Source: Eledone cirrhosa (lineage: Eukaryota). From it: DNA of 64,000 bases. The position numbers and the translations under genes were made by a program. Numbering within the stretch: the stretch's first letter is position 1; every line of letters starts with the position of its first letter. A model generated the notes under the pieces. It saw nothing but the letters and a program-made list of their open reading frames with translations, was not told the origin of the DNA and did no database searches. Shown piece by piece: positions 13,701 through 59,879 of this stretch. The stretch is from the NCBI GenBank assembly GCA_964016885.1, contig CAXHJY010000743.1, positions 1-64,000 on the forward strand, read 5' to 3'.

Positions 13701-14888
13701 CCATAATGAATCTGGCAAAAGAACTGGAAAAAAACATTCGAGCTATCACCCAGCACCACCCTCCACTATCACCCCACTGCACAAACTCCCATTGCTGCCA
13801 TTAACAAACAAACAAATTAACAACACACCAAAACAATTAAAACCATCCACTCTCGCCTCTACATTTTTGCTTAACGCCCAAGGCATCAGCCCTTCCACCA
13901 ATACTCAAAAATGGAAGATCAAATTCCTGGAGGACTGATTGATGTCCATCCAAACCACATCCCTTTCTTCGTCCTCACTGAAACCCATCTCAGTAACCTC
14001 CACTTGGAAGCCGAGGTGAAAGTGAAAAATTTCAAAGCCATCCGTGCTGATCGCGCTGGCAGAAGAAAGGCGGAACTGCCATTTATGTCCATAATTCTTT
14101 CTCAACAGAGGCTATGAACATATTCACTAATGGATACTGTGAGGCAGTCACTGTATTCAGTCAAACCAACAACCTATTAGTAGTTGGGCTCTATAGGCCA
14201 CCCCAAACGCCTGTACCATGCTTCAAGGAATGCCTCAACAGCATAAAGTGTTTCATCCAAGAGTGTCACCCTGACAACATCTTAATGATGGGGGACTTCA
14301 ACCTCCCCGGAGTTGACTGGTCCACAAACACCCTGCCACCAGGTTCTTCTGCCTCAACCTCTGACAGGGAAGCTGTGGAATCGCTTCTTGACTTCATGGA
14401 TGATTTCTTCCTATCCCAACTAGTGCTCGAACCAACGAGGTGCCACAAAAACGTCCTAGACTTAATTTTCAGCAATCACACTGACAATATCCACAATATT
14501 GCAGTGGAGAAAACTCTACTCTCTGATCATGACATGGTTCTCTGTGATCTGAGATTCCACCGTCCAATATACAAACCCAATGTCATCTCTCCTGTCCATC
14601 CGTTTGACGCTATGGATTTCCACAATGCAAACTGGGAAGCGATCAGTCATGATCTTGCACATGTCGACTGGTCCTTCACGCACACTCATACACCCACTAA
14701 CATCAAAAAGTCCTGGCAGACATTTGTGGACACTGTTACAAACATATGTGCTAAACACACCCCATTAAGAACTATAAACAAATCTAAGAGCAGAATCCCT
14801 AGAAATAGAAAAAACGCTCATCAGAAAAATTAAGAGAACGAAGAAAAAAATCAACAAGCTGAAATACTGTCAGCAGCAACACATCAAC

Positions 14889-16811
14889 TTGACTGCCATT
14901 TCATCACTAGAGATTAAAAAACATAACCTCCAAAACAACATAATGTCCCTCATCAACAATCAGAGAAGAGCTGAAGAGGCCTGGGCCATTGAGAAGATCA
15001 AACTCAATCCCAAAGTGTTCTTTTCATTTGCAAAAAAACACAAAATCACTGGCTCTACTGTTGGCCCTCTAATTGATGAAAATGGCACTCTTCAAGACAA
15101 TGCTAAAACCATGGGTGAGATACTGCAGAAACAATACTGCTCTGTTTTCAGCAATCCTGATATGGCCGATCTGGGCTGTATCGGCGATGTTACTCCCCAT
15201 TACACCTTATTGGACATAACGTTTGGCGCCCCTGATGTCTTGGCGGCAATAAAGGAAATCAAGCATAATTCAGCAGTAGGTCCCGATAGGTTCCCTGCTT
15301 GTGTCCTGAAGGCGTGTCAACACCAACTTGCTTCTCCTCTTGCCAATCTGTGGCGGAACTCACTAGATGCTGGATATGTGCCAGAAAACCTTCTATCCCA
15401 GTCTGTTGTCCCAGTTTTCAAAAAGGGAAACAAATCCCTTGCCGTGAATTACCGTCCAATCTCACTCACCTCTCATATCATTAAGGTATTTGAGCGAGTG
15501 GTGAGATCGCGAATGACCCACTTCCTTGAGAGTAACAATATGCTGAACTCCAACCAGCATGGATTCCGTAATGGAAGGGATTGCCTGACGCAACTACTGC
15601 ATCACTTTGATGACATTTTGAGAGCCTTGGGAGAGGGTTCCAACACTGATGTTATCTACCTTGATTTCAGCAAGGCCTTTGACAGGGTTGATCATAACAT
15701 TCTACTGAGAAAGCTGTCCAATATTGGTGTCACTGGAAAGCTGCTGCAGTGGATCAAGAGCTTCCTGTCAAACAGAACCCAACATGTTGTAGTTGAGGGA
15801 GTCAAATCAAGCCCAGCCAAAGTCAGTAGTGGAGTCCCACAAGGCACTGTGTTGGGCCCACTTCTCTTCATCATCTATATTAATGACATCACTGACATCA
15901 TCAAACACAGCAACATTAAAATTTTCGCTGATGATTCCAAGCTCCAAAAGGTCATCAATGGCGTGGATGACCGGATAAGCCTTCAGTCAGACCTACTGGC
16001 TGTTACCCAATGGGCAGAAAAGAACAACATGTTACTGAACGAGGACAAATTCGAACTGATCCACTTTGGAAAAGAGGATGCTCTGAAACTCCCGTACTCC
16101 CTTCCCTCCGGGGAAACTCTCGTGGCATCTAACAACATCAGAGACTTGGGAGTAACCGTGGACAGCAACATAAGCTGGACCACGCATATAAGCAGCAAAG
16201 TTGACATGGCCCGCAGAATGTGTTCCTGGATCCTCAGAACCTTCCAGTCGAGAGATTCCCGCACCATTATCCTTCTCTTCTCTACTTTCGCCCGACCACA
16301 CCTTGAATACTGTTGTCCACTGTGGTCTCCCCACACGAAACAAGGTATCATGAAACTTGAAGCTCCTCAAAGGGCAATCACGAAAAAGATAGATGGCATG
16401 TCAGACCTTGACTACTGGGGTCGATTGGAAAACCTGAAACTTTACTCACTCCAACGTCGCCGTGAGCGTTATATTATCTGCATGATGTGGAAAATGTTCC
16501 ATCATCACTGCCCAAATGATGTTGGCATCGCCTTCAAGATACACCCAAGGCTTGGGCCCCGTGCTATCCGTCCCATTCAAAAATCTAAATCGCAACTCAT
16601 AACAACAATACGGCACAATTATTTCACCTCAATCGGCCCTGCTCTCTTCAACATCACACCAGGACACGTCAAAACAGAAACTGACCACTCAAAATTCAAG
16701 AAGTCTTTGGACAAATTCCTCCAAGTAATCCCGGACAAACCACCCACACCCGGATATGTCTCCGCAAACAGTAATTCTCTTCTCGAATGGGCCATGGTGC
16801 CCAAATCCTGA
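14889..16811 (+). CDS. LINE reverse transcriptase (ORF2 C-terminal 640 aa, uninterrupted)
   Basis: [71 protein letters not shown]. Confidence 0.9.
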
Positions 16812-25968: not shown

Positions 25969-27228
25969 CAGGGTGCGGACGATATTTGTTCACGAGATTA
26001 ATGTCTAGGAAAAAATAACACAGTAGTTTTATTTTTTAAGATATATTCATCAAACTTGGGTCAGTTTCTCTTCATGACTTGTTCTTTCGATCTCACTCGA
26101 TAAACCCGCCATTTGCTTTGATGACTGCCTCAAGGCAGACTCGGAACCAGCTACAAGCCTTCGTCACTGTCCCCCGACTTAGGCCCCTAAAGGCATTTGA
26201 GATCCTGGCCTTCAGATCGTCTTTCCTATTGCAGCTAGATCTGTGGTGTCTTGTTCCACTGCACCCCACACAAAGACGTCGAGGGGGCTGCAGTCAGGCG
26301 AGCTGGAAGGCCAGATGTCGGGTGAAGTGTGGTCAACGAAGTTCTCTGACAGCCAAGCTTGGGTCTTTCGGTTGGTATGGCAGGGCGCTGAGTCTTGCTG
26401 CCATGCGTACGGCCTACCTGCAGCTACCTGGTTGATCCAGGGCTTTACTACCTCGCTCAGAACGCGGATGTAGCCATCGGTGTTCAGCTTGAGGCTCTCA
26501 GGGAAGAAGTAAGGTGGCATGACGTCACCTTGACTGCTGACGACACCTAAGACCAATGTTGTCGCTGGAAACTTTGTCTGCATGACTCTGGGCACATCTT
26601 TGGATGAGACACCGAGCCACCTGTTGTTCTGGTTGTTGATCTTCTGGTCTTGGCAGAAGTTTTTCTCGTCGGAGAAAAACCACAGCATGTCTGGCTCCAG
26701 TGTGTGTTTCAACTTGTTGATCAGCTTCTTTGCGTGCTTCAGTCGCTTTTCTTGCATCGCCTTTGACAGAAATTGTCCTTTCCTCATCTTGTATGAAACG
26801 TAGCGAATGTCTTGCAATGGCACGCATCGACTTGCTAGGTTCATTGTTGATGATATCCAGAACTTCAGCGATGAACTCTGGGCTTTCTGAAGGCGTCAGA
26901 TCGTCGATCATGTGTTTTCCTCTCTGATGTTGCTTCATAGTCATATCCCGAATCTTCCAATTCCTTTCTGACCTTTTCCACCATTCTCCTGCTGACGCTG
27001 AGAAAGTCTGAAATTTCCTTATTTGTCCTCCCGGCGCGGATTCCTAGAAGAACTCTGTGTCTCTTCCACAAATTTCGAGGTTCAAAATGATTTATAATCA
27101 ATTATTCTGAAAATAAATAATGGAAATATAGTCACTGTTTTTATGAAGACAAGAGTGACAACGGAAGTAAAGAAAATTTGCATCAAATTAGCAGTTGAAA
27201 ATTGCGAACAAATATCGTCCACACCCTG
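25969..27228 (-). mobile_element. Tc1/mariner-superfamily DD37D (maT) DNA transposon with a frameshifted transposase
   Basis: TIRs CAGGGTG(C/T)GGACGATATTTGTTC at both ends with TA flanks. Transposase pieces at 27101-26865 and 26844-26212 contain WFFSDEKNF, WQQDSAPCH and SPDCSPLD; 37 residues lie between the 2nd and 3rd Asp. Confidence 0.93.
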
Positions 27229-36879: not shown

Positions 36880-37555
36880 ATAAGATTTTTATATTTATTT
36901 TGAGAACAATAACTTTTCATCAGTGTGAGTGGCCGGTTTGAACAGAGGTGAGAGAATTCCGGCCTGATACAGCCAGTTTAAAGGCTAAAGGGTTAAGTAG
37001 GGAATGATCTCAAAGTGTTTCATCTTCCCTCCTTTAGATCCCATTGCCAATGGACAATATGAGCTTGACGAATGTTCAGTGTCTTGAATAGTTATCTTTA
37101 GATATGTATATTCAAGACTGGGAAATTTGGCTCTTATATTTATCAAATGAAGTGACCATAGTGAGGTATCATCATCATCATCATCATCACTGTGGGTTAG
37201 ACGAGTTGTCCCGTTGTGAGACACGTCAGATCAGATGATCACGTCTTTCTCATACACAAATAATTTTGGTTTGGTTTTTACGACTGGATGCCCTTCCTAA
37301 TGCCAAACACATTTACAGTGTGGGCTGGGTGCACCAAAAGGACCACTTTATAGTGTGGGAGGGAGGATTTATCAGGTGAGAGGTGGAGGATAGGGATGTG
37401 GGTGTAGGGAAGATAGAGGAAAGGGGTGCATACTGAATGCATGCTTCAATTTCTGCATAGGAGAAGGCTGGTCTTCTGTATAACTACATAATGCCAGATT
37501 AGTTTATTTTTGGTTATTCAGGTTGTTTTAATAATTGTAATCCTTCATTTTGCAG

Positions 37556-37755
37556 AGCTGGTGCAGAAAGTTTATGGTGTTATATATTCAATTTGTCTGC
37601 TATAAGTGCAAGTGTGAATGAAAAAAAGCGACGTATCATAATGACTATAGTTTGGTTTGCAACAACCCTTGTTCTTGCTGTGTTAATTCCCAATATTGGA
37701 GTTGTTATTGCATTCCTTGGAACATTAGCAGCTGTCTTCATTTTTATTTTCCCAG
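37556..37755 (+). CDS. SLC38A7: SLC38A7-like internal exon
   Basis: ttttgCAG|A...CCAG|GTAATT; AGAESLWCYIF...RRIIMTIVWFATTLVLAVLIPNIGVVIAFLGTLAAVFIFIFPG; phase 2 to 1. Confidence 0.9.
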
Positions 37756-38297
37756 GTAATTCTTTTATTTTTATTTTCTTTAGAATATTTCCTATTTGTG
37801 AAATTTATTTGAAATGAAATCTTTCTAATTAATTGTAGGGCACATTTCAAACCTTAAAGATTCAGTTTTTATCTCAAACAGAATTTGTATCACAAGATAT
37901 CTAAATACAGTTACTTCCTATTGACAGCATTATAATAAAATAATAGATATTTATAAAAGAATGAAAAAAATATCATCATTATCAGTGTTTTAACTTAAGC
38001 ACAGATATGTCATGTGATTAAGAAGTTTGTTTCATAATCAGTAGTTTCAAGATCAATCCCACTTGGGCAAGTATCCTCTAGGAAAATTTAGCTGTTATTT
38101 TTAGCAGGTTAAGCAGCTGTCCCAATGTAATTATTAATGAAAGGAAACTGAAAGATGTTTTCTATTTCTCTTTATATTAAACTCTTGTATTCTACCTCCT
38201 ATTCTAAATTAATACCAATGTTTATATTTGTAAAGTCATTTCAAAACAAAAATCCAGATAAATTTATAAATCTTTATTTTTTTTATATATTCTTCAG

Positions 38298-38503
38298 GCT
38301 TATGTATCCTTCAATTAGGTATACATATGGATGATTACCTGGTGTGGAAATCGCGGTTTGCTATAGCCTCTGGAATATTGTTTTTAACTTTAGGTGCTTT
38401 TATTTTTGGTGTCACTTTTACACAAGCCATTCTGAAGAACCTTCATGGGTTTTCTGGGAGTGGATTAGATGATGTCTGTGATAAAAACGTTACATCTACC
38501 TAA
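38298..38503 (+). CDS. SLC38A7: SLC38A7-like terminal coding exon
   Basis: tcttCAG|GC; LCILQLG...GILFLTLGAFIFGVTFTQAIL...NVTST*; phase matches the previous exon. Confidence 0.88.
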
Positions 38504-45480: not shown

Positions 45481-48400
45481 CTGGTGAAACAGTGAGCTGC
45501 ATAAGTCTTGCCCAGTGGGACAAGCATGGTGACACAATCACTGAAATTAATGGCATTGGTGATAGAGATTAAGGTTTATTCACAATCACCTTTTCTTTGA
45601 CTTCATTTTGATACTCATTACACCATGCTGATTAGTAGAAGAGGGAAGGCATCTGATTGGTCCATATCTAATCCCTTGCCAACTCCCACTACTATCCATT
45701 ATATTAAAGTGCCAATATTGGATTGTGTGTGGAGCAAATTGTCAATCACACTGAGGAAAGGGGAAAATAAGATTGTGGGTATGATAGAGCAAGAGAAAAA
45801 GAGCAGTGGTTGTGGTGGAAGCAGCAAATGCTGAAATTTTTTGTTTTAATCTCAAGTCTTATAGAAAGATGGTAAGAGTGTGTGTGTGAGAGAGAAAATG
45901 AAAAGACATTGCTTTTTAAAACTTTGGTCACACTGTGGAAAGGTATGAGTGTGTGCAAGAGAGAGAAAGAGTGGCACTATATGAAAAATATTGTTTATCC
46001 TCAAACTATGAGTAAAATATTCCATTTTGGGAGTTTTGTCATTTTTTTAGTTTATTGAGTTTTGTATATAATATATTTCAAATGCCATATTGATCTTTAA
46101 TACTTGGTGGTTGTTTCTAATTAAGGCTTGGAATTTCTGCATGGTTATTACTTTTATCACTGATTACCATTAACACTACCACTGCAGTGGTGAAACATTG
46201 AACAGAGGAAATATATGGTAAAGAGGATTCTTTAGCCTTGTCAAGTACAAGACAACCTTTTTAGTACTCGTGCCATAAGAAAATGCACCCAGTACACTCT
46301 GTAAAGTAGCTGACAATCCAATAGACACAACTTTGATCTTGCAAAGGATATAACACCCTATCTAGGAGTGGTACGATGGTAAAATATTCCCAGTACAACT
46401 GGTAAAGTGATAGCTTTTAGAAAAAGTATCTGGCCATAAAAACCATGCCAAATTTGGAATGTGATGTGGCACCTCAGCCCATCTATGAGGGCAGTGACTC
46501 TAAATAAAAATTGGGACTGTAAGAGCCCATGCCAGCATAGAAAACAGATGTAAAATAATGATGATGATTTCAAGGAGCCATATTAAAAATCTGAAGTCAT
46601 AAAGAGAGCGAGAGAATGAATGAGTGCTTAGGTGGGGGAGGGGGCATAATTCAGCTAAAGAAGACAAAACAAATTGGAAGTTGGTGTGTTGTTTAGACCC
46701 AGTTAAGCCCTAGGACGACCAGACTTGTGATCAAAGGTATTCCAGCAGTGACCATTCTATTTAATTCCGAGGCATAGTACATCCAGGGCTACATTATCTA
46801 ATGTGTCATTCTTTTCTAAGATGGTAGTGTATGATAGAGGGAGATTCATCTGCTATTTCTAGCAAGTAGAATGACTGCACAGTCTCCCAAAAAATTTGCT
46901 ATGTAGTTTGGTGGTTTACAGTTTCAAGAACAAATCTTCACATTCCTATTATATAAAAAAAAAAAATATCCAATTTCAAAACTAACAAACTATATCATAG
47001 GAATACAACAACGCAGCAAATTATAGACTCACTATATCCGACAAAATTCCCTCAAAACACACACTACCATCTTTAAAAAAGGAAGGACTCATTGGACACT
47101 GTAGCTACTGATATACAAAAAAAAATGGGCTAATCATGGCTTGACTACCTTTGGTCATAGGTCTGTTGAATCATAATTGAACCCATGTCATTAAAGTCAA
47201 AACAATTATCAATTAAAAAATTCAGAAATATTCTCAGAACAAAATCATTTATTTAACCAATCTAATGGTCTGCTTGAGAAAAATATAAGTGGGGAAAGTG
47301 AACACTTCATTTTCGAAATAACTTTTCATCTCCTGATAGGTAATTTTTCTATCACACAATATTATGAATTTCCTTCTAGTGATGTGGATGTAAGATTAAC
47401 ATGTGTTCTATTTATCTTTTCCATCCACTATAAGTGTCATGATCAAGTTCCTGTGATAAAAAAAAAAATCTCCAAGCTCTGATACCCAAGTTCTTGAAGC
47501 CAAGCAATAGCAAAGCAATGTTCAGTGTGGAAATAACAAGATTAAATATACAGATAAAAGGAAGGGCATTTTTAGTTGTTCATATCACACTGCCCAAATA
47601 TTGCCTTTCAAATTATAGATGTATAGTTGTGTTTTAAAAATGCGTTTAAAAAAAGTAATAATTTTTTAATTGATTTTTTTTTGTTTCATAATAAATATCC
47701 ACTGGACTTTCCTAAAATAATAGAAATCTAAAACTAAAAGTTCATTTATAAAATAGTGTTTAAAATGCTTACTGAAATGACATTACTTCCATTCTCATTC
47801 CTTGTCTTTGTTTATTGAGATTAGTTTATCTTAATATAATGTTATCATTGATAAATTGACTAAAATCATAGATTGCCTAAATCTAATATTTGAGCAGAAC
47901 TGTTCACAACTGTGACAATGAATGTTAAAATTTGGGTTTAATTCTTACATCACTATATCTTTATTGAAACACACATTGTTTTTGTTTAAATTAATTTTGA
48001 AAATAAAGACGAATTTAGTAAAATAACTAACAACAGTTTGGAACATAACAGAAGGTCCTTACATGAAAATTTGATATAAGGTTTTTAATTTAGATATGAA
48101 TACTTCAACATGGGGAGGGGGATTATAATAGAACAAGAGATGGTCTGAGATGGGCTAATTATTGCAAATATCCTACATTACTGCAGTTATTAAATCACAA
48201 ATTAATATTGTAAGATAAAAGATATATTTCCTCAACTTCAAATAATTATAGGAAATACACATTGCAATTCAGAGAAAAAAAAAACAAAACAACTAAAGCT
48301 ATAATATATTTACATGGTTTGTTAAAAAAATTAAACATTTTAAAATTCATTTCTTGTAGAATTATCCTAAATAAAAACAAATCTTCTAAAATATTAATAA

Positions 48401-48565
48401 ACAGGATAGAAGTGGGGAGGAAGGCATTCTGACAATGAAAATTTAACCAGTGATATATCAGTTGTCTAAATCAGTTCAAATATTCAATATATAGAATCCT
48501 TGATAAGTGAGTCTTGAATTTTTTTTTTTTTTTTTTTTTTTTTTTCTTTTTCCAATTAAGGCAAT

Positions 48566-49668
48566 TTAGCGAAGTTTCTGAATTAAGCATTGGATCTCAG
48601 GTTTCAAAAATGATTCAGCATTATAACTACTTTCTGGCTGAGTGGCAAGAGAATTAGCTAAATCTTCATCAACAATGAAATTAACCAAAGCAGATGGTGC
48701 AAGGCCAAGTTCAATTAATGTTAAGTCCTCATCAAGTCTCTGTCCTGTTGGATTCACTAAATGGAAAAGTATCCATTCCCATTTTAAATTCTCTCGAATA
48801 AACTGCTGCAGATCACTTAGTTTTTCTTGAGCCTTAAAGGTTCCTTGCAAGACAATGTTATCAGGAAAACGAACACGTATCATAGTGTAACGATAACGAC
48901 GCAATTCTCGTTTTTCCTCACGTGCTCGCATGGCCTTTGTTCGAAGAATTTCAACCTTCTCCAAGTTTTCATTACGTAATTGTTGCTCTCTTTTGAGTTC
49001 AGATGGAGTCAGATTATAGAAGTCATCAGTCACCTCAAAATTTGGCATGCCATGTTGACGATCATACACCTGCAAGGCTCGGTCAAGCTCAGGTCGAATT
49101 GGTTCAGCTGTAAGAAGACAGTCTTTCATTTGGCTCAATAACTCAACATTAAGAGCATTTTCTTCTGGAATGATAAAAAACATTTCTTCAGGTTGATCAT
49201 CAACTTTTAGACTTTTCCTCTCAAAACCACATGTAATTAGAAATTCTTCACTGCCTTCGATATGGTTAACCTTTTCTTGAAAAGCTCGGTTATTAATTCG
49301 GATTTTTCTGAATTTTTCCTCACCGGGGTTGTTAATAAGGTTATCTATATATTTTGTTAAGATTTCAACACAAACCTTCACAGCTTCTTTATTCTTATTC
49401 AGAGTATGAATTATCAGTGTTGAGGCCATATGAGGGTGATTTTCAAGCAAACTATATAGGAATTCTCTGATATATTCATGTATTTCATGTTTAGGAAGCA
49501 CTGCAGGCCCAATGTTAGGACATTTAAATAAAAGGAAGGGGCAACTATTTGTGTCACCTTCATCTAATTCCGCTGAATTGACAGATGGGTTTGGAGACTG
49601 TTCCTGACATGTGGAAGCAGCAACATCTTTACTACGAACACAAGTTTTCATAGTAGGTCGTAATCCCC
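48566..49668 (-). CDS. UBXN6: UBX domain-containing protein 6, large 3' coding exon (PUB and UBX domains)
   Basis: Acceptor ttttaCAG|GG, phase 1. PUB motif KYIDNLINNPGEEKFRKIRINNRAFQEKV. DDFYNLTPSELKREQQ. UBX motif RYRYTMIRVRFPDNIVLQGTF...LIELGLAPSALVNF. Confidence 0.93.
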
Positions 49669-51926
49669 CTGTAAAAATATAACGACAACATTTAATGTTT
49701 TTAGTTTTAATAATTCATTTCTACTTTATTCTAAAGCATGAACCCAATACACTTTGTAAAAGGTTGGTAATAGGAAGGGCATCCAACCATAGAAAAAAAT
49801 GCTAAACAAAGTGTCTGTAAGACATTATAATCTCTCTAGTGATGTTGGCATGATAAAATGCAATAAGTAGAGCATATGTAAGTGAGATGTAGGCCCCTGG
49901 GCAATTGAGAGATCAGTAGCTCCAAAAGAGTACTGACTTCAACTGTGAAAAAAACAATAATGATGATATATATATATACAATGGACCCTCCTATCAAGAA
50001 CAATATATAAGTATTCAATTGTTTGATGAATTGTACAACTTACTGAATTCGCATGTAAAACTGCTGACATACACTCTTTGACATAATTCTCAAGTTGGAT
50101 CAGCATGACAAGGTTGTACCTTTGAATTACAGGTGAGCCCATCAGATAGACTTCCATCTACTTAACTTCACTAACAAGGTTGGGTCAACCTGAGGCTGTG
50201 GCAGAAGACACCCATGATGCCCTGCAGTCGGACTGAACCTGGGATCTCGTGTCAAGTAAACTTTGTAATCATTCAGCCACACCAAGTATATATATATATC
50301 ATCATAACCTTTTAACATCTATTTTCTACACTAATATGGGTTAAACGAGTTGTCCCATTGTGAGATAAGTCAAATAAAATCTTGCTCATACAAAACTATT
50401 TCTGGCCTGGTTTCTATGGCTGGATGCCCTTCCTAATGCCAACCACATTTACAACATGGACTAGGTGCTTTTTATGATGGCATAGGATAACCAAGCCTTT
50501 TTTTTCCTCCTTTACAAAATAGTTTTCCTATGGTCAGATGCTCTTCTTTCTGCTAATACATATTTTATTTTCATGTATAGTGTATACCATAGCTCTTCAC
50601 CCATTGAATTGCTAAGCAGCATAAAGTATTGTTTATGCAGGATGTAAACAAACACCAGTGCTTGCTTTAAACGGTATTGCTATGAAGATGCACAGAAGCA
50701 GACACATACAGACACATATTTGTATCACTGTCATCCTAGCCTGGCCAACAATACAAATGCCATAGTGTTGAAATACGGTTGTGTTGATTCCACAATAAAA
50801 TGCACCTAGTCTATGTTGTGTGGTAGTGGTGGTGCCACAAGAAAATGAATCCAGTACACACTGTGAAATGGTTGCCAAAATGGAATGTATGAGCAAGACT
50901 GTCATCTGACCTGTATGTCTAGCCACAGAATGTAACAATCCATCTAACCAATGCAAGCATGAAAAACAGACATAAAACGTTGATGGTGATGATAATGATA
51001 TATGATGGGTATCCTCACAGAAAAAGAGAAACAAGCTCACTGATGAGACATGAACTATCTATCAATCACTTGCTAAGCAACTGTATAACTGGTTATACTA
51101 GAATGCCTGCCATTCCATTGATACCTCTCTATGTTGCACATTAGTAAAATAGCCTATTCTGACAATGCTAAATGACTGACAAATTATCTGTGAAACATGA
51201 GAGATGGAAGTGCAGAAAATATCTTTATAGTAGGTAACATCATCACCCTCATCATCATCGGTTGGACAAGTTTGAGAAAAAGGAACAATTGTTGTGTATT
51301 ATAGTCAGTAATGTAGTTGCTTGGCAAACAATAGATACAATGCCTGAGTGCTAGTGGTGCACCTATTGCATCTGTTCCATCTCATATTGGTGCTAATGTT
51401 CAATATCGTTTAAATAGTAACTATTTATTGTCTGCCTTGAACAAATTGACACTTTGTAGAAGCATAAAGACTCTTTAGTTTTGGGGAACACAAGGTAGCC
51501 TTCATAGTGCTTGGTGCCACAATAAAATTCACCTAGTATACTCTGTAAATTGGTTGACGAACAAACAGAGACAATGCAGGATCAAAAATACTTTTTAGTC
51601 TGGCCAAGGACAAGACAATCTCTCTACTGTTGATGCTATGATAAAATACATGCAGAACACATTGTAAAGTGGTTGGTATTATGAAAGGCAACCCACCTAG
51701 AAGAACAATAGTTCCCAAGAGAACTGATTTGGACCGTGATAGCCTGGTCAACTCCTGCCAGCATGGAAAGTGGACATAAAATGTTGATATTTAAACAATA
51801 AGTTATTGGTTAAGAAAATATATGAAATTAAAAGTGAGGTAGGAAAGAAAAAAGAGAATCCTCATAATTTAGTTTTAAAGAAAAATAAAGATATAGAAAT
51901 TATGCCTTAGAATAAAAAATATATAC

Positions 51927-52140
51927 CTGATTTAGATTGATTGAACCGTGCAATTGCAGCAGCTGCAGCTCTCTGTTCAGATTCTGTTTTAGGGGCTGAC
52001 TGTGATGATGAAGAGCGAGCACATAAAGTGGAATGCGAAGTTCTCGGAGAATTTTCTTTTTCGCCAGTTAATTTATGACCAGGACCAGCTTTCTTAAAGA
52101 AGTGATCTAGTTTAATCTTATCAAAAAAGTTATTTGGCAT
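51927..52140 (-). CDS. UBXN6: UBXN6 first coding exon (VIM-containing N-terminus)
   Basis: MPNNFFDKIKLDHFFKKAGPGHKL...EQRAAAAAIARF; donor CAG|GTATAT, phase 1; the joined CDS is 438 aa. Confidence 0.9.
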
Positions 52141-52299
52141 CGTGATTTGCTTGATGAGTGGAAATATTAAAATAAAAGATTAATAATTTAGACAATTGAA
52201 TTTTTCAATTTTTAACTTTTAATCCCATGAAATTTAATTTATTTGTTAGAAGTTTCAAAGTTTGTGTTGAATGATGTCTTTTCACTATAGCTAGCTTTG

Positions 52300-52333
52300 T
52301 TAGAAGGTTGCTGACCTTGTGGCTGGTGGATTC
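52300..52333 (-). CDS. Candidate last coding segment of an uncharacterised membrane protein
   Basis: Acceptor atctttaCAG|G; in phase 2 it reads (R)NPPATRSATF*. AATAAA at 52243-52238 lies downstream. Confidence 0.4.
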
Positions 52334-52599
52334 CTGTAAAGATTGGAATTTTAAAAATTGCCATTTTAAAAACAAATCACATATTCAGTATTCTTGTTAT
52401 AAAATAAATGAGTGATAATATTAATGAGTGTTTTAAACAAAAATGTTTCAAATATCCAAATAATTTGATGGAATAACTATATCATACAAAAGTGTCAAAT
52501 AAAAAGAGATTCAACTTTCTTTTTGCCATGGAAAATACCAAGAATCAAATGTAAATTAACTACCAAAATATAAAAGCTAGTGTAAATTGTTTCTAATAT

Positions 52600-52790
52600 A
52601 GGCATAAAGCCTATTGTGGGAGAGGATAGTGGATTATATTGACTCATGTACTAGACTGGTATTTTATTTTATCAACCCTGAAAGGATGAGAAACAAAACT
52701 GACGACAGCTGGATTTGAACTCAAAATGTAAAGAACAAAAACAAATATCACAAGATATTTTGTCCAATCCTTTAACAATTCTAGCAATCC
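52600..52790 (-). mobile_element. SINE with a Nin/Deu-like domain (related decayed copies at ~42405-42475 and ~53490-53740)
   Basis: Reverse complement contains GAGTTCAAATCC and CATCCTTTCAGGGTTGATAAAATAAAATACCAG. Confidence 0.7.
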
Positions 52791-52879
52791 AAAAACATAA
52801 TCAATTAAGAAATAAAAACTTAAGTTAATCAAAAGAATAGACTCAGTACTACTGTACCAATGATTTCTATATGCCCTGC

Positions 52880-53135
52880 CAGACTGGTGAAATTGTGTGG
52901 TTGATGCGCAGCTTGAACATTTGTAGGTCAATGTCTGCAGGAAATGCATAGCTGGGGAAGCAATTGGAAAAAGTTGTAGTCCTGGGAGAAATGTTTAGTG
53001 TTGTGAAGGGAGAAGATGAGACACTGTGAAGATGATGACAGGAGAAATATGTAGGTCCAGTGAGCCTAAGAGAGTTCAGAAGAGCAGACATAGTTTTAGT
53101 AGCAACAAAAGAGGCAAACTGCTTTTGTTTTGATG
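52880..53135 (-). mobile_element. Decayed Jockey/CR1-group LINE 3' remnant
   Basis: Peptide NCFPSYAFPADIDLQMFKLRINH resembles LINE ORF2 C-termini and the copy at 54345-54960. Confidence 0.5.
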
Positions 53136-54344
53136 AGTTCATTATAAAACCACATTTCTTTACACGATTGATGCTCTACTATGCCTGTACCATTTATAAT
53201 TAGTAACATAGCATTTTATCTGAGACAATGCTTTTTAAAATTGTACTATAAGCTCCTCCTTTGTGTTTATATTTTGGCTTCAGCCTTTGACATGTTCATA
53301 AATCACATGTTGCTAAAATATTTACAATTATTACCATTTATCAAAGTCCTGTATGTGTGTGTATATATATATCAGAGAGAAAAAAAGAGAGAGAGACTAT
53401 TTATAACTTAAAAATCGCCTTGCTAACTAGTGTAAAGCTGAAAATACTTAGTTACCTGCTTAAGGACTAAGCTGGTCATCATTTTGTTTTTTGCCAAGGT
53501 CCCAGTTTTCCAGTGATGTGAGGTGGGATTTGAACTTAGAATATACAAAGCTATAATAGATACTGTAAGGTAACCCATCTGATGTGCTAACAATTCGTCT
53601 AATCCACCTCCCTGGATTGGTATTTTATCAACCCCAAAAGGCTGAAAAGTAATGCTGGTCTCAGTAAAATTTGAATTCTGGGCATAAACAGCTAAACAAA
53701 TAATTACAAGGCATTCTATCGAATGATTTTGCCAATTTACTGTCTATTACAGTAATACCTTCTTCGTGTTACCCTATTGAGCACTGATTTGTAATAACAC
53801 TCTTTCCTGGAAATTAATATTTTCACCTTATCATAAACATTCATATAAAAAAATCTGACCATTTTGTCTTGCAACTAACTCTTTCTTCATTTTTTAGAGT
53901 GGGAGAGAAAGATGATGATGATAAAATAAAACAGAGAAAAGAAAAAGATGTTGAAAAATGAACATACTATCAAAGTGGGAATGAGAAAGAGTGTAAACAG
54001 GCATTTGAGGTAAAAAAAAAAAAAAAAAAGGTCATTTTCTTGTGCTCTACTGTCTGTCCTTTTACTCTCCCCTTTTTTCTCTGCCTCACACTATTCCTTC
54101 CTCTCCCTTTCTCTGTACTTTGGAGCATTTTTTTTTTACTCTGCATGTACATCAAAAATTATTTCATTGAAAAAAAGAAACAATATGTATATGTACATAC
54201 ATATGTATGTAAATATGTTTGTGTGGAGGCGATGCATGTGTGATTGCAAACATTCTTACTTGTATGCATACACACACACAAATACATATATACACACATT
54301 AAACGGTATACATTTCGTAGAATTTTTTTTTTTTTATGCCTGGA

Positions 54345-54960
54345 GGCGCTCTTAAATTGAGGAGATTGAATCTGTTGATATTCAGTTTAAATTGATGCAA
54401 GTTGACTTCTACAAGAAAGGCATGTACAGGGAAAGAATAATAGAGGGATAACATTCTGGGGAGGAAAGACTGGGCATAGTGGTTAGAGAAAGACCTGGAT
54501 GACTTAACAAAATATAGATGAGAGGAGGGGCAAGTGAGGTTGGTATGTCTAAGTGAAAGTTGTTGGAAGTCAGCCATATTCAAGGAGCAGAGGCCACTGT
54601 AGTATAATTAGAAAAAGTAGCAAGAGGAGAAAGAACATCCGTAAGCCAGAAGCAGGACTGTGTCTGTTAGTGACTATGCCAATCAGACAAGTGACCTTTT
54701 TCTGGATGCATTCTAGGATGATTGTGTGTGGCAGCAGCTCCATCCCAGATGAGGGAACAGTACTCCATTATGGGTGTTACCTGAGCTTTGCAAAGGATCA
54801 GAGGTTGTTAAGGGCTGAAGTAATTTTCTGGTTTTAAAAAGAAGAGTCTTTCTGATACACATGCTAGTTATGTTTAGGATGTGCATTTGCGATGAAAGAT
54901 CCTTAGTGAAAGCAAGGCTGAACATTTGAAGTGAATGTGCGAGCTCTAATTGCATGCTGT
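54345..54960 (-). mobile_element. Decayed Jockey/CR1-group LINE 3' remnant
   Basis: HYAQSFLPRMLSLYYSFPVHAFLVEVNLHQFKLNINRFNL; upstream ATGGAGTACTGTTCCCTCATCTGGGATGG (MEYCSLIWDG); followed by an A-rich tail. Confidence 0.65.
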
Positions 54961-56383
54961 TCATGTTTAATGGTGATGAAGTGCGATGCAGTTTTAGTTC
55001 TATATACATACAATCAAAAAGCAAATGAACAATAACAAAATGAATCAGATCTTTCACTGATTTGGTTTCAGTCATTCAACTGGAGTGCTGTCATACTTGC
55101 GAACGTCTTAATGAGTTTCAGACATCATATTGATCCCAGTACTCGTTTCAATCTGTTGCTCATTTTATCGAACTACTATGTTATGGGACAAAAGCAAGAA
55201 CATAGACATGGATACACGCATTGAATACAAGTGCTGATTTTCAAATAATATATTTGTACAGAGTTGCAATTAATTTCCAAAGAATTAGCCAACTGAACCA
55301 AAGAATTACTAAGCAACTTCAAGTACGCATTTTAGAGGTTTGCCAAAAATTGCAATTGGTTATTATGGCAGAAACTCACTTGCACAAAAACTCAAGCTAC
55401 AGCTTTTCTTTTAACCTGCCACCCCTATTCCATCTGCATCATACTACTTTTATAATAACTATCACAATCACAACTATTTTCTTAAACACTATCCATTAAA
55501 ATGCGCGGATAGCATCAAGGAATAACCTAAGACCTGGCTCGCAATAAAGATGGATGGAGTAAAGGAAGTGATACACTGCTCTACCATGCTGTAATCCCAC
55601 GACGCTGGGAGGAAAATGCATGTTTTTGACAAAATAAATTATCACCAACCAACAGTACATAAGGCGAGGGTGGGAAAACAAAGGAGTTTCTACAGTGGCA
55701 GACAATTCTTCCACTGATCACATATTATTGTCTTTAAAAAAAGACACGTTTGGATAGTCCTATATATACAGAAAGACGGTATGGTGACGAATACTTTTGA
55801 TCTTAGGTTTGTTCAATCAGAGTTGACCTGATGCTAAACAATAACTTTAGCTATTATTATTCTGTCATGCTACTTATGATACATGCTCAATTCATTCTTA
55901 TTTACAGAATGTTCAAATTGTACAACAGCAGTTTGATAATTCACCAGTTACTAGCTAATGCCTATTTATTATTGTTGTTTTTTTTTCAGTAACTTGATCG
56001 GAGGAAGAAGGGTAGCGCGTATGACACTTTTCAAAGTCCCTGGGTATGGAAAAAATTGCAAGTGTGGACTCCGCTAAAGGCACCAATTAGTGGTGTTAAA
56101 ATGATTAAATCGGCTAGTTAGGAACAGTAACAGTCCGACGGGCTTACACCCAGTTTCCACCTACTAAATTTCACTCACAAGGCTACCGCAGAAGACACTT
56201 GCCCAGAGTAATGTGTAGGGAGGATAAATACTAAACCATGCTGTTACGGAGTCAACTTCTTGACCGTAACAGCTATGTCTGCGCATAGGCCTAATGCGTA
56301 ATCATAAGCATCGAGCTTAGGATTACAGCCTATCCTTTATAGAGAAGCATGCTCCCAAAATACATTTACTTCATTATAATTTC

Positions 56384-56752
56384 CTGGAAACGTTCGGTGG
56401 ATTTGGGCTACTGACAGCGAAGTTCTTGTCTTCACTGGCAGCTCGCCTTACTGAGGTGTCAGGTAATGCCCGTGAGGGTGCCTGGTTATTTCAGAGCCTT
56501 AGCCTCGCCATCACCTGTGGTAATGCTGCGAGCATGTTGGCTTGCCTGAAAGTGTACAATTAACCCCCAAGGTGTGAGGTGTTGCCGCTTGTCGCACTTG
56601 GTGAATTGCCTCCTCCTTTCTTTTCTTCTTTTTCCTTCTTTCTTACCTTTATCATTTTTGTTCATGATTTTATATGTTATGTTATTTATGTATATATTTA
56701 AAACATATTTGCAACGTTATTCTACTGTAAATTTATACAACTGTAATAAAAT
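56384..56752 (+). mobile_element. 3' end of a CRE-clade RLE non-LTR retrotransposon
   Basis: 56384-56563 reads LETFGGFGLLTAKFLSSLAARLTEVSGNAREGAWLFQSLSLAITCGNAASMLACLKVYN* (FQRLSLAIQRGNAAS-type motif); T-rich 3' UTR ends AATAAAA. Confidence 0.7.
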
Positions 56753-57552
56753 ATGTGACCAATTAAGTTAACGGAATAAAGAATACACATCATAAACACA
56801 CACACACATCATAAACGCACACGCACATCATAAACGCAAATTAGTTTCAAGTAAATGAATCTACCGTTGTTGTTATTTAGTCACAGGTTAGCCCTTTTAG
56901 AGCAGGCACAACTATGATCAAAGACTATTCCAGTTATGACCAGATCGTATGTTCTTCCATACACCGAACAAGTTTACTCCTTCGACAATACGGTAGAGCG
57001 TGGTTTGAAGAAAAATTGGCTGCTGTTTCTAACGTGTCAAGCGACCGTGTAGAGGCTTCATCAGCGGATCACACAGAAGATATTTCATTCCATGATAACA
57101 TAAAAAGCAGATCACAGTCTTCTTTATGCTTTCATGGGCGAAGTAATATAATTCTGTAGCTGCGTAAATGTTATTGTAATAGACATTACAATAAATACGT
57201 AGTAATTAGAGTTGAGAGATAACCGCTATGACTAAATATAATTGAGTGTTGCTGCTGTTGTGTAAAACCCATGTCAGCTTTCATCGAGCAGGCATATGGT
57301 CCTGTCGTCATAAATTGCCGCGTTATTGTATTATTTTAAGTGTATGCATAAAATATTTTCTAATACATACATATCTGTGTCTGAAAGATGAGGGGAAGAG
57401 GGGAAATTTGTGCATAGACAACATATCGACTACTGTTTGCTTCTTTTTTTTTTTTTTTTAAACTGTTTTAGGGTTTCCTTAAACGGTTAACACGTGGAAC
57501 AAGTTCAAGACGCAAATTACTACCAATAACTCACTGAAATAATTTAAATAAC

Positions 57553-57646
57553 CTGATTGTTATTGTGTACCAGTCATATGACATGATTTGATCAGGTGAG
57601 ACACCAGTTGAAACAAATAAGCTGGAGTCATTATATGTAATCCATG
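57553..57646 (-). CDS. Candidate internal exon of the uncharacterised membrane protein
   Basis: cctaataaCAG|CA...ATCAG|GTTATT; open in phase 1: (A)WITYNDSSLFVSTGVSPDQIMSYDWYTITI. Confidence 0.45.
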
Positions 57647-58593
57647 CTGTTATTAGGATATTGACAGAAACTCATTTAAATACATTCGGTTCACTGCATA
57701 GTGTAAATTGGTAAAAGTGAATTCAAATATATACAAATGTCTAATATATATATTTATTATACACTAATCTCCGCGTACTACTTTATAAATATCTAACTAT
57801 GTAACATATTTTCGATTTTTATTTTCTTACAAAATGTGTAAATATTTCAGTGTACGACACTAAAATAATGATTTTGACTAAGTTCGCTTAAAAGCAGATT
57901 TTATAGAACATATCACCTTAGATATATCAACATCTGACCGGTATAGATTTTATTTACTTCTGATGACTACTTTTTTTTCGCATGGCTATTAACTTCCTAA
58001 GTGTATCGAATGTCAAGAAAAATGAGTTAGATCGATTAACACAAAATAGAGCCAATACAATTACTTTTCTGCAAAATTCAACAGTGGCGTTATGCCTTTA
58101 AATAAAGTATCCAAGGATATCGGAGACGACTATACCTTGTCATAAATAATGGATTACTTACGTGTACTATTTATATGAAAAAGAAATTATAACATTTTAA
58201 CCTTTCGCCAAAAAAAGACTCTTCTCAGTCTTTCGTTTTTCACTTTCCGACATGGGGGGGGGGGGGGGAAATCACCGGATTTTTATTATAGTTTCATACA
58301 CTGAAAAATTGAGACCATCTAATTACACACTACACTAGAACATTTCTGTTATTTATATATATATATATAATTCAAAGTAAAAGATATATGTGTATATATA
58401 TATCCAAGAGAATACACAATATATTGTATATATACAAAGCACATATTTCAGATGGAAACAATATTGTTTCTTTCTCTCTCTCTATATATATATTTATTTT
58501 AAAGAGTTAAACAAGATTCAATGAGTACATCAAAGAATGAGTTTTACAGTAGATTGAAAGCACTCTACAGTATGATATTTTCCAGAGTTATTA

Positions 58594-58862
58594 ATATTAA
58601 ATTCAAATATTAATAAAATAGATGTTATTGTGATTAATTAAATTTTATTATACATATTTCAGAGGTACTTGAATCAAGTTCAATAGTACGTCCTCATCAC
58701 TACCTTGATTAAATCTTAACCATTTAACATGTCAGGGTATATCATTTTATTTTATCTGACGAGGACGTACTATTGAACTTGATTTAAGTACCTCTGAAAT
58801 ATGTATAATAAAATTTAATTGATCACAAGAACATCCATTTTATTAATATTTGAATTTAATAT
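58594..58862. mobile_element. Inverted repeat (106-bp arms, 57-bp spacer); probable second Penelope-like pLTR pair
   Basis: 58594-58699 is the reverse complement of 58757-58862 with a few mismatches. Outer extension 58367-58397 pairs with 58859-58890. Contains a hammerhead-like core. Confidence 0.65.
58744..58814 (+). ncRNA. Degenerate Type I hammerhead ribozyme
   Basis: CUGACGA 58756-58762. Stem II GGACGUACU/AGUACCUCU with one C-C mismatch. GAAA 58796-58799. UAU-GUA. AU-rich, imperfect stem I. Confidence 0.55.
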
Positions 58863-59523
58863 ACACACATATCTTTTACTTTTGAATTATTATAGCTCTG
58901 GACTAAGTCTATTGAGCTTTTTTATTGAGAAGCACAAAAATCAAACATATTTTATGTTTTGATACCTCACATTTTGTATATTTCCGTGTACTAGTTTATA
59001 AATACCTACTTTCATTTTTTTTCTTGCGACGTGTGGTATGTAATTATCTACTCTAAATATTTTCGCGGATGACAGTAAAATAATGATTTTGACCAGAGAT
59101 TATATCGTCTTATTCAATATATTTGACTGGTATAGGTTTTATTTACATCAGAACAGACTGTGACGATTATTTTAGAGGCAGTCCTGAAACTGAAACGGAA
59201 TTTCCAAAGTGAATGTCTTTAACTTTGCAAATTAAAAGTTGTTTACATATATATATATATATATACACACATTCACTAATCGTCGGTCTATTGTGGGTTA
59301 AATAAAACATATACCAGTCATATATGTTGAGTAAAGCGATATGTTCTATATAATCTTTCTTTGAGCGAACCTGGTCAAAATCATTATTTTACTGTCATAC
59401 GCAGAAATATTTAGAGCAGATAATTAGACAACACACACATATATATATATGTGTATGTATATAAATAGGATAGTAATGGCGGAGGGGAATGATTGTTGAT
59501 AATTCATAATTTCCAGAACTTAC

Positions 59524-59833
59524 CTGATCGTACGAACAGGTCGTTTATGTTAAATCCGTACACAAGCCATGCCAAATGGATGAGAACGATAGTTATGAAG
59601 AAATAAGCAAGCAATCCAAGCAAAACCCTCACTTGAACAGGACTGTTCACAAAGCACAGCCGACCAGGTCCATATGTTGTGTCGCTACTAGCCAAGGGGG
59701 TGTCGCCCTGGTCTGAGTTTGAGATCCCAACAACCGATTGCAATACACCTTCAGCACACGATATAATACGTTCTGGTTTTAGGTAGTCGTATATAATACG
59801 GTAATAAGTGTTCAACTGATTCCAGTTAGACAT
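59524..59833 (-). CDS. Candidate first coding exon of an uncharacterised membrane protein
   Basis: ATG-initiated, 103 codons plus 1 nt, ending at a consensus donor CAG|GTAAGT. Hydrophobic span VLLGLLAYFFITIVLIHLAWLVYG. Locally CpG-rich and not repeat-like. Confidence 0.62.
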
Positions 59834-59879
59834 ACCAGGGAAAACTTGGTTGTAACTTAAATAAAAATTACGTACTAGG

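What the first reader, a model, noticed from the sequence alone, without database searches (positions are those of the whole stretch)
52140..59833. Hidden spliced membrane-protein ORF ending 159 nt before the UBXN6 start: candidate bicistronic or interleaved locus
Seen: three minus-strand segments with compatible splice phases (59833-59524 with donor CAG|GTAAGT; 57646-57553; 52333-52300) join into a 145-aa protein with one hydrophobic span, ending ...YDWYTITIRNPPATRSATF*. The UBXN6 ATG (52140) follows 159 nt later. That gap holds an AATAAA (52243-52238), a tiny uORF and a pyrimidine-rich AAG acceptor (exon start 52149). A second consensus donor, CAC|GTAAGT, sits at 58161. Inference: either one mRNA carries both ORFs, or a UBXN6 5' non-coding exon lies inside this gene's intron and splices over its last exons. 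The phase-1 donor at 59524 could also join the phase-1 UBXN6 acceptor at 49668, giving a membrane-anchored PUB-UBX isoform. I do not recognise the protein family.
Basis: partly seen in the sequence, partly recalled or inferred. Interest (0 to 1): 0.75.

Follow-up and report, generated by a model that had tools for sequence, protein, structure and literature searches.

The report
Ancient TCTA–UBXN6 two-protein messenger RNA
In this octopus relative, a small membrane protein resembling TCTA is predicted to end 98 bases before the UBXN6 gene starts, and both are likely made from one messenger RNA; the pairing is already catalogued in fruit flies and also appears here in worm-, bryozoan- and crustacean-like records, so it is likely ancient.

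Summary
Exon 59833-59524 encodes a TCTA-like (PF15128) single-pass protein. Cephalopod homologues match a direct join to 52333: 134 aa, stop at 52241-52239, 98 nt before the UBXN6 ATG. The middle exon and the 145-aa tail have no support, and the 'AATAAA' overlaps that stop codon. One RNA-like run gives a spliced contig covering the last TCTA exon, the spacer and UBXN6, unbroken at 52149. The two proteins have consecutive accessions in Octopus vulgaris and Argonauta. A homologous ORF precedes UBXN6 in 10 of 11 metagenome loci that hold the UBXN6 start (annelid-, bryozoan-, crustacean-, insect-like); four begin with the copepod spliced leader. FlyBase lists fly CG42306-Gint3 (UBXN6) as always dicistronic. 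Weak first-AUG context and few AUGs favour leaky scanning. This is a known kind of locus. What is added is the TCTA identity of the first ORF and conservation across protostomes. The 59524>52333 junction was not seen in reads, and translation is untested.

The parts
59524..59833 (-). ORF1 (TCTA-like) coding exon 1, residues 1-103 plus one base; hydrophobic span about 70-92; start context cctggtATGT; donor CAG|GTAAGT
   Evidence: Pfam PF15128 E 4.3e-5, 23.7 bits; 86% and 80% identical to O. vulgaris and Argonauta proteins; the only hit above threshold of a non-cephalopod ORF1 profile among 1203 window ORFs; one match in the genome
   Evidence: homologue tails; X4 depth mostly 3-8 in the part laid, up to 56000; the junction itself was not seen in reads
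52239..52333 (-). last coding part of ORF1 (31 codons and TAA), first part of the shared exon 52333-51927
   Evidence: spliced X4 contig begins at 52336, the acceptor plus CAG
52141..52238 (-). 98-nt AU-rich spacer between the two ORFs, with a 7-aa uORF (52228-52205)
   Evidence: inside the X4 contig, bin depth 95; folding no better than shuffles, z -1.0
51927..52140 (-). ORF2 (UBXN6) first coding part; start context atcacgATGC; donor CAG|GTATAT
   Evidence: homologues P0004, P0006; GT-AG joint in X4 only
49669..51926 (-). UBXN6 intron, 2,258 nt
   Evidence: joint with GT..AG ends at depth 91.7 in X4, absent from X1-X3
48566..49668 (-). UBXN6 second coding exon (PUB and UBX domains); whole protein 438 aa
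   Evidence: PUB 87 bits, UBX 24 bits, both over cut-off
   Evidence: X4 record 23, 1312 nt, depth 93

Best explanation
This is likely a bicistronic gene: one spliced mRNA likely carries first a predicted 134-aa TCTA-like single-pass membrane protein and, 98 nt after its stop, UBXN6, and UBXN6 is likely reached by ribosomes that leak past the weak first AUG. Shown: the last ORF1 coding segment, the spacer and the first UBXN6 segment lie in one exon of a spliced contig of an RNA-like run; the ORF1-UBXN6 order recurs in cephalopods and in other protostome records; the fly pair is curated as always dicistronic. Inferred: the 59524>52333 junction (from homologues), one promoter upstream of 59833, translation of both ORFs, and leaky scanning with re-scanning after three 6-8-codon out-of-frame uORFs. 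The pairing likely dates from before the arthropod-spiralian split and would tie the output of the two proteins together.
For: Own species: X4 has exon bins at depth 76-96 against 2-8 in most non-repeat intron bins, and a GT-AG joint that X1-X3 lack; one 1556-nt contig runs from 52336 through the ORF1 stop, spacer and UBXN6 ATG into exon 2. Cephalopods: consecutive accessions CAI9716141.1/CAI9716142.1, GAB1597387.1/GAB1597388.1, GAB1600917.1/GAB1600916.1. Other animals: of 15 UBXN6 loci, 11 hold the start codon and 10 of these have a 111-155-aa hydrophobic ORF ending 9-108 nt before it; a profile from cephalopod ORF1s ranks those 10 first among 980 ORFs (E 1e-8 to 0.025, 8 of 10 under 3e-5). 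Eight are intron-free and four begin with the calanoid spliced leader of PMC4664967 Table 1. Spacers of 5 (fly), 9, 15 and 16 nt leave no room for a poly(A) site and promoter; 0 of 9 spacers scanned hold AATAAA or ATTAAA. ORF1 dN/dS is 0.025-0.042 among three copepod records. Fly Gint3/CG42306: 'all di/polycistronic'. Leaky scanning: A at -3 in 10 of 11 ORF2 starts against 3 of 10 ORF1 starts; AUG density 6.2 against 14.6 per kb, lower in 9 of 9 transcripts; internal Met 6 of 912 against 63 of 3099 residues, p 0.002.
Against: A contig across two ORFs does not prove single molecules; no long read, and the 59524>52333 junction was not examined in reads. X4 is not on record as RNA (kind '?'); its behaviour says so. 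One sample, one study. The window's exon 1 alone is under Pfam's cut-off (23.7 against 27), and 3 of 4 copepod ORF1s have no Pfam hit. Out-of-frame AUGs are not depleted against shuffles of ORF1's own codons (18 seen, about 21 expected in 10 transcripts) and only mildly against ORF2 codon usage (11 against 19.5, p 0.03). The taxa are related, so these p-values are generous. Three AUGs remain between the two starts in the window. The window's stop overlaps an AATAAA. L005 has only 58 nt before UBXN6 and shows no ORF1.
Confidence: 0.72

Rival explanations
1. Same bicistronic mRNA, but UBXN6 is made by re-initiation after ORF1 terminates, or by internal ribosome entry, not by leaky scanning.
For: Very short spacers in fly (5 nt), L004 (9), L015 (15) and L003 (16) suit termination-coupled re-initiation. 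Some AUGs remain in ORF1. PMC4528330 (passages) says most fly dicistronics do not meet scanning requirements.
Against: Spacer length varies from 5 to 108 nt and frame varies; 6 of 7 spacers fold no better than shuffles. ORF1 is 111-155 codons, long for re-initiation (PMC2276209 passage). Kozak asymmetry and Met scarcity are not predicted by it.
Confidence: 0.17
2. Two tightly packed genes with separate mRNAs: ORF1 polyadenylated after the AATAAA, UBXN6 from its own 5' exon (58162>52149) or freed by trans-splicing at 52149.
For: AATAAA at 52243, AAG acceptor with 16 of 22 pyrimidines at 52149, consensus donor at 58162. O. bimaculoides has two RefSeq transcripts for the same UBXN6 protein. Two copepod spacers hold TTTTCAG.
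Against: X4 contig unbroken across 52243 and 52149 (contigs drop rare variants, and the loose-end table was cut). The 58162 donor lies in a stretch matching two other genome places at 74-82%. No AATAAA in 9 other spacers; spacers down to 5 nt; leader-bearing contigs hold both ORFs.
Confidence: 0.07
3. A membrane-anchored TCTA-PUB-UBX fusion (59524>49668) is a real, functional product.
For: Both sites are phase 1 and the frame is open for 470 aa. O. bimaculoides isoform X2 (389 aa) shows the exon-2 acceptor taking another upstream exon.
Against: 0 of 128 UBXN6 proteins match the ORF1 profile. None of the 120 listed of 271 UBXN6 hits of 201-641 aa carries PF15128. The X2 N-terminus is not TCTA-like. 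The profile search of representatives gave no fused form (4 hits).
Confidence: 0.03
4. The reader's three-exon 145-aa protein is the product.
For: Splice phases fit and the frame is open.
Against: Weak donor; 1 of 16 such pseudo-exons.
Confidence: 0.01

Closest known systems
Drosophila CG42306-Gint3/armless (CG5469) dicistronic locus (PMC2276209; PMC4528330 File S1; PMC4219662)
   Same: ORF2 is UBXN6. ORF1 is a roughly 120-aa protein with one hydrophobic span followed by W-x-x-YG-x-x-I-x-x-x-F, as in the ORF1s aligned here (read by eye from the supplement). Short stop-start gap on one mRNA.
   Different: Spacer 98 nt against 5 nt. The cephalopod C-terminal tail lacks the arthropod LKLP-x-EH motif. 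In what I read of the three papers the uORF is traced only to Diptera and is not called TCTA.
TCTA family (Pfam PF15128; human TCTA, 103 aa, PMC4439957 passages)
   Same: Small protein, one hydrophobic span, AW-x-x-YG motif; the four cephalopod orthologues tested pass Pfam's cut-off (27.7-33.3 bits).
   Different: Longer N-terminus. Human TCTA and UBXN6 lie on different chromosomes (3p21 and 19p13; recalled, not checked), so the human gene is not paired with UBXN6.
Leaky-scanning bicistronic mRNAs of green algae (PMC11892635, abstract and outline)
   Same: Weaker Kozak context at ORF1 and few AUGs before ORF2.
   Different: Unrelated genes; there the mechanism was tested by mutation, here it is inferred.
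MOCS2A/MOCS2B conserved bicistronic transcript (named in PMC2276209 and PMC4528330 passages)
   Same: An ORF pair on one mRNA kept across distant animals.
   Different: MOCS2 ORFs are subunits of one enzyme; no functional link of TCTA and UBXN6 is shown.

Membership tests
TCTA family (PF15128) | Pfam score over the curated cut-off (27 bits) | tested here: inconclusive
   Window exon 1: 23.7 bits, E 4.3e-5. 4 of 4 cephalopod orthologues tested pass; of 10 other ORF1s, 2 pass, 5 match under cut-off, 3 have no hit.
TCTA family (PF15128) | small protein with one hydrophobic span followed by AW-x-x-Y | tested here: met
   Hydropathy peak 2.5 starting at residue 70; A, W and Y invariant in 24 of 24 rows; TCTA clusters rank 1 and 3 in the Atlas for P0001 at 0.84 and 0.83, a lead only.
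TCTA family (PF15128) | orthology to vertebrate TCTA in a tree | not tested
   No vertebrate TCTA sequence was returned.
UBXN6 | PUB domain followed by UBX domain | tested here: met
   PUB 87 bits, UBX 24 bits; groups with Octopus and Argonauta UBXN6 at 100/100.
Dicistronic mRNA (FlyBase sense) | both ORFs on one processed mRNA | tested here: inconclusive
   Own species: one spliced contig holds the ORF1 end and UBXN6, but not ORF1 exon 1, and is no single molecule. Relatives: 8 intron-free contigs hold both whole ORFs, 4 with a spliced leader.
Dicistronic mRNA (FlyBase sense) | ORF1 is a selected protein-coding frame | tested here: met
   dN/dS 0.025-0.042 in 3 copepod pairs; 86% identity to O. 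vulgaris against 73% for UBXN6 exon 2.
Dicistronic mRNA (FlyBase sense) | both proteins translated from that mRNA | not testable with these tools
   Needs ribosome profiling or reporters.
CG42306-Gint3 orthologous locus | ORF1 homologous to fly CG42306 | tested here: inconclusive
   Not scored. By eye the fly uORF shares the post-helix motif with all ORF1s and its C-terminal motif with L015; L015 and insect-like L008 match the cephalopod profile at E 0.013 and 3e-5.
Leaky-scanning bicistron | weaker start context at ORF1 than at ORF2 | tested here: met
   A at -3: 3 of 10 ORF1 against 10 of 11 ORF2; the other ORF1s have G (5) or T (2).
Leaky-scanning bicistron | AUG depletion before ORF2 | tested here: inconclusive
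   Total AUG and Met are low; out-of-frame AUG is low against ORF2 codon usage (p 0.03) but not against ORF1's own codon shuffles.

The most novel reading that the evidence does not exclude
TCTA, a human gene with no settled molecular role, is a membrane partner or adaptor of the UBXN6-p97 pathway. The two were co-translated from one mRNA in the protostome (perhaps bilaterian) ancestor, have been kept so from flies to octopods, and were split only on the way to vertebrates.
Probability: 0.25. Interest if true: 0.75.

Novelty: new member of a known kind. Interest (0 to 1): 0.45.

Why it matters
It corrects a gene model and brings out a protein that annotation easily hides in the UBXN6 5' UTR: no O. 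bimaculoides or O. sinensis ORF1 came up, although their UBXN6 did. It extends a dicistron described from Diptera to cephalopods and to annelid-, bryozoan- and crustacean-like records, which makes it a very old two-protein animal mRNA. It names the first ORF as TCTA-like and so gives a testable lead, the p97-UBXN6 pathway, for a poorly understood human gene. It also means that RNAi against invertebrate UBXN6 would lower both proteins.

Tried and rejected
The ORF listing on the whole window was too long; done by script. No RNA holder listed. Reads could be laid only on 47500-56000, so junctions 59524>52333, 59524>57646, 58162>52149 and 59524>49668 were not directly examined. The Atlas does not hold the window protein; structure look-alikes of P0001 were all under TM 0.35. 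The representative search reached only cephalopods plus one repeat artefact, P0126. The wide ORF1 search returned 33 proteins, 5 cephalopod and 28 close to insect-like L008 (the named ones are ants), and no deuterostome or vertebrate, so the state outside protostomes is open. L012, L013, L014 and L016 lack the UBXN6 start and were dropped from the 10-of-11 count; L005 is counted as a miss. A squid-like spliced ORF1 (P0131) and a full-length UBXN6 (P0133) share a longest-contig length of 4034: a hint only, the contig could not be fetched. Spacer structure is not conserved. The bacterial promoter scan is irrelevant. The X2 N-terminus of O. bimaculoides has no match in the window. The middle pseudo-exon is single-copy. 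Nothing lies on record nearby from this scan. No recognisable host gene among ORFs of 80 aa or more in the 10 kb beyond the window, only retroelement-like pieces judged by eye.
Full report
Observation. The model is nevertheless not the supported one. Exon 59833-59524 matches Pfam T_cell_tran_alt (TCTA, PF15128; E 4.3e-5, 23.7 bits, cut-off 27). Its close homologues are an Octopus vulgaris protein (141 aa, 86%) and an Argonauta protein (127 aa, 80%). Both continue after the exon-1 end with GIQQPQ, which is what the window gives when 59524 is joined straight to 52333 (GIHQPQ; 134 aa; stop 52241-52239). That segment has a weak donor and is 1 of 16 stop-free pseudo-exons in the intron. The gap to UBXN6 is therefore 98 nt, and the AATAAA overlaps the ORF1 stop. 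UBXN6 is 52140-51927 plus 49668-48566, 438 aa, with PUB and UBX domains. The tree places the window next to Octopus and Argonauta.

Own-species transcript. No run was listed as RNA. Of four runs laid on 47500-56000, X4 behaves as RNA: exon bins at depth 76-96, most non-repeat intron bins at 2-8, and a GT-AG joint over 51926-49669 that X1-X3 lack. Its 1556-nt contig starts at 52336, the acceptor plus the CAG shared by intron end and exon-1 end, and runs unbroken through the ORF1 stop, the AATAAA, the 52149 acceptor and the UBXN6 ATG into exon 2. So 52333-51927 behaves as one exon. Limits: contigs are not molecules and drop rare variants; this is one sample; exon 1 lay outside the stretch laid, so no junction from 59524 or 58162 was seen. 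CpG o/e is 0.5-1.15 over 55.5-60 kb and 0.15-0.53 over 51.5-55.5 kb, weakly in line with one promoter near exon 1.

Conservation. ORF1 and UBXN6 have consecutive accessions in O. vulgaris and in both Argonauta copies. Eleven hold the UBXN6 start; 10 have a hydrophobic ORF of 111-155 aa ending 9-108 nt upstream (L015 counted as a 137-aa open stretch), and L005 has only 58 nt there. By tree or best match the carriers are annelid-like (L002, L003), bryozoan-like (L004), crustacean-like (L006, L015 near Daphnia), copepod (L007, L009-L011) and insect-like (L008). Homology holds both ways: a profile from 8 non-cephalopod ORF1s finds only exon 1 above threshold among 1203 window ORFs (E 1.5e-7), and a profile from 5 cephalopod rows ranks the 10 ORF1s first among 980 ORFs. 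Eight carriers are intron-free. Four start with the calanoid spliced leader printed in Table 1 of PMC4664967 (passages), so they look like mature mRNAs holding both ORFs. Genomic L003 has the window's layout: a phase-1 intron after the helix (one codon off), then one exon with ORF1 end, 16-nt spacer and UBXN6 start, then an intron after about 72 codons. ORF1 dN/dS is 0.025-0.042 among three copepod records.

What is in print. Gint3/armless (CG5469) is the fly UBXN6 orthologue (PMC4219662, passages). PMC2276209 (passages and supplement passages) lists a 121-aa conserved uORF on it, traced to Aedes. PMC4528330 File S1 (part 1 and row search) lists Gint3 and CG42306 as 'all di/polycistronic', 5 nt apart, unrelated. 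By eye the fly uORF has the same post-helix motif; I did not score it. In PMC4219662, UBXN6 alone rescued the RNAi phenotype and CG42306 did not, while CG42306 over-expression removed the tarsal region (supplement legend). That argues against ORF1 being needed for the Wingless role, but shows it is active. PMC4439957 (passages) says TCTA is conserved from Drosophila to humans. I found no paper linking TCTA with UBXN6 or extending the pair beyond Diptera: TCTA+UBXN6 0 papers; full name+bicistronic 0; CG42306 2 (one read in passages, one listing only); UBXN6+bicistronic 2 listed, unrelated by abstract start; TCTA+p97+interact+endolysosom 3 listed, not read; 0. Most subscription papers and FlyBase itself were not searchable.

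Mechanism. Leaky scanning is the best guess, by the signatures named in PMC11892635 (abstract and outline). A at -3 occurs in 10 of 11 UBXN6 starts and 3 of 10 ORF1 starts. AUG density before the UBXN6 start is 6.2 against 14.6 per kb in UBXN6, lower in 9 of 9 transcripts; with one copepod kept the ratio is 0.39, while six control triplets give 0.72-1.4. Internal Met is 6 of 912 against 63 of 3099 residues, and the window's ORF1 has none. Against: out-of-frame AUGs are not depleted relative to ORF1's own codon shuffles, three 6-8-codon uORFs remain in the window's model mRNA, and the taxa are not independent. Re-initiation or internal entry remains open; no conserved spacer fold was found (1 of 7 strongly folded).

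An interleaved UBXN6 exon (58162>52149) is not the main path: the contig is unbroken there and the donor sits in a stretch matching two other places. The fusion frame is open (470 aa) but no such protein was found among 128 UBXN6 sequences. Either could exist as a rare isoform.

Verdict. A real feature with a corrected model: a likely bicistronic TCTA-like/UBXN6 gene, the cephalopod counterpart of fly CG42306-Gint3. New member of a known kind; the family assignment and the depth of conservation are the additions. Interest 0.45.

Noticed in passing
window 37503-37814 (+), perhaps also 38270-38500: Exon of an amino-acid transporter (Aa_trans, E 2.7e-4) on the opposite strand, converging on UBXN6; the second ORF has no Pfam hit.
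   Followed up: partly
window 14778-16808 (+) and 26215-27043 (-): A LINE-like reverse transcriptase ORF of 677 aa (E 2e-31) and weak Tc1/mariner-like transposase pieces (E 0.08).
   Followed up: partly
window 59834-59845 against P0131, P0132, P0138: The codons just before the ORF1 ATG read Pro-Gly in the window and in squid-like homologues: a conserved start context or a non-AUG extension.
   Followed up: no
P0127 (O. bimaculoides XP_014772240.1): RefSeq isoform X2 replaces the first UBXN6 coding exon with an unrelated 22-aa start; no match in the window.
   Followed up: partly
L002:429-539: This spacer forms a long hairpin (z -5.0, 0 of 200 shuffles as stable) that holds its two AUGs; the six other spacers folded do not.
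   Followed up: no
L007, L009, L010, L011, first 60 nt and spacers: Each has an extra ATG a few bases before the ORF1 start; L007 and L009 have TTTTCAG in the spacer, a possible second trans-splice acceptor.
   Followed up: no
GAB1597387/8 and GAB1600916/7: Argonauta has the whole pair twice on different scaffolds, nearly identical: duplication or haplotigs.
   Followed up: no
window about 1-26000: Many kilobases of AT/AC microsatellite arrays mixed with retroelement fragments.
   Followed up: no
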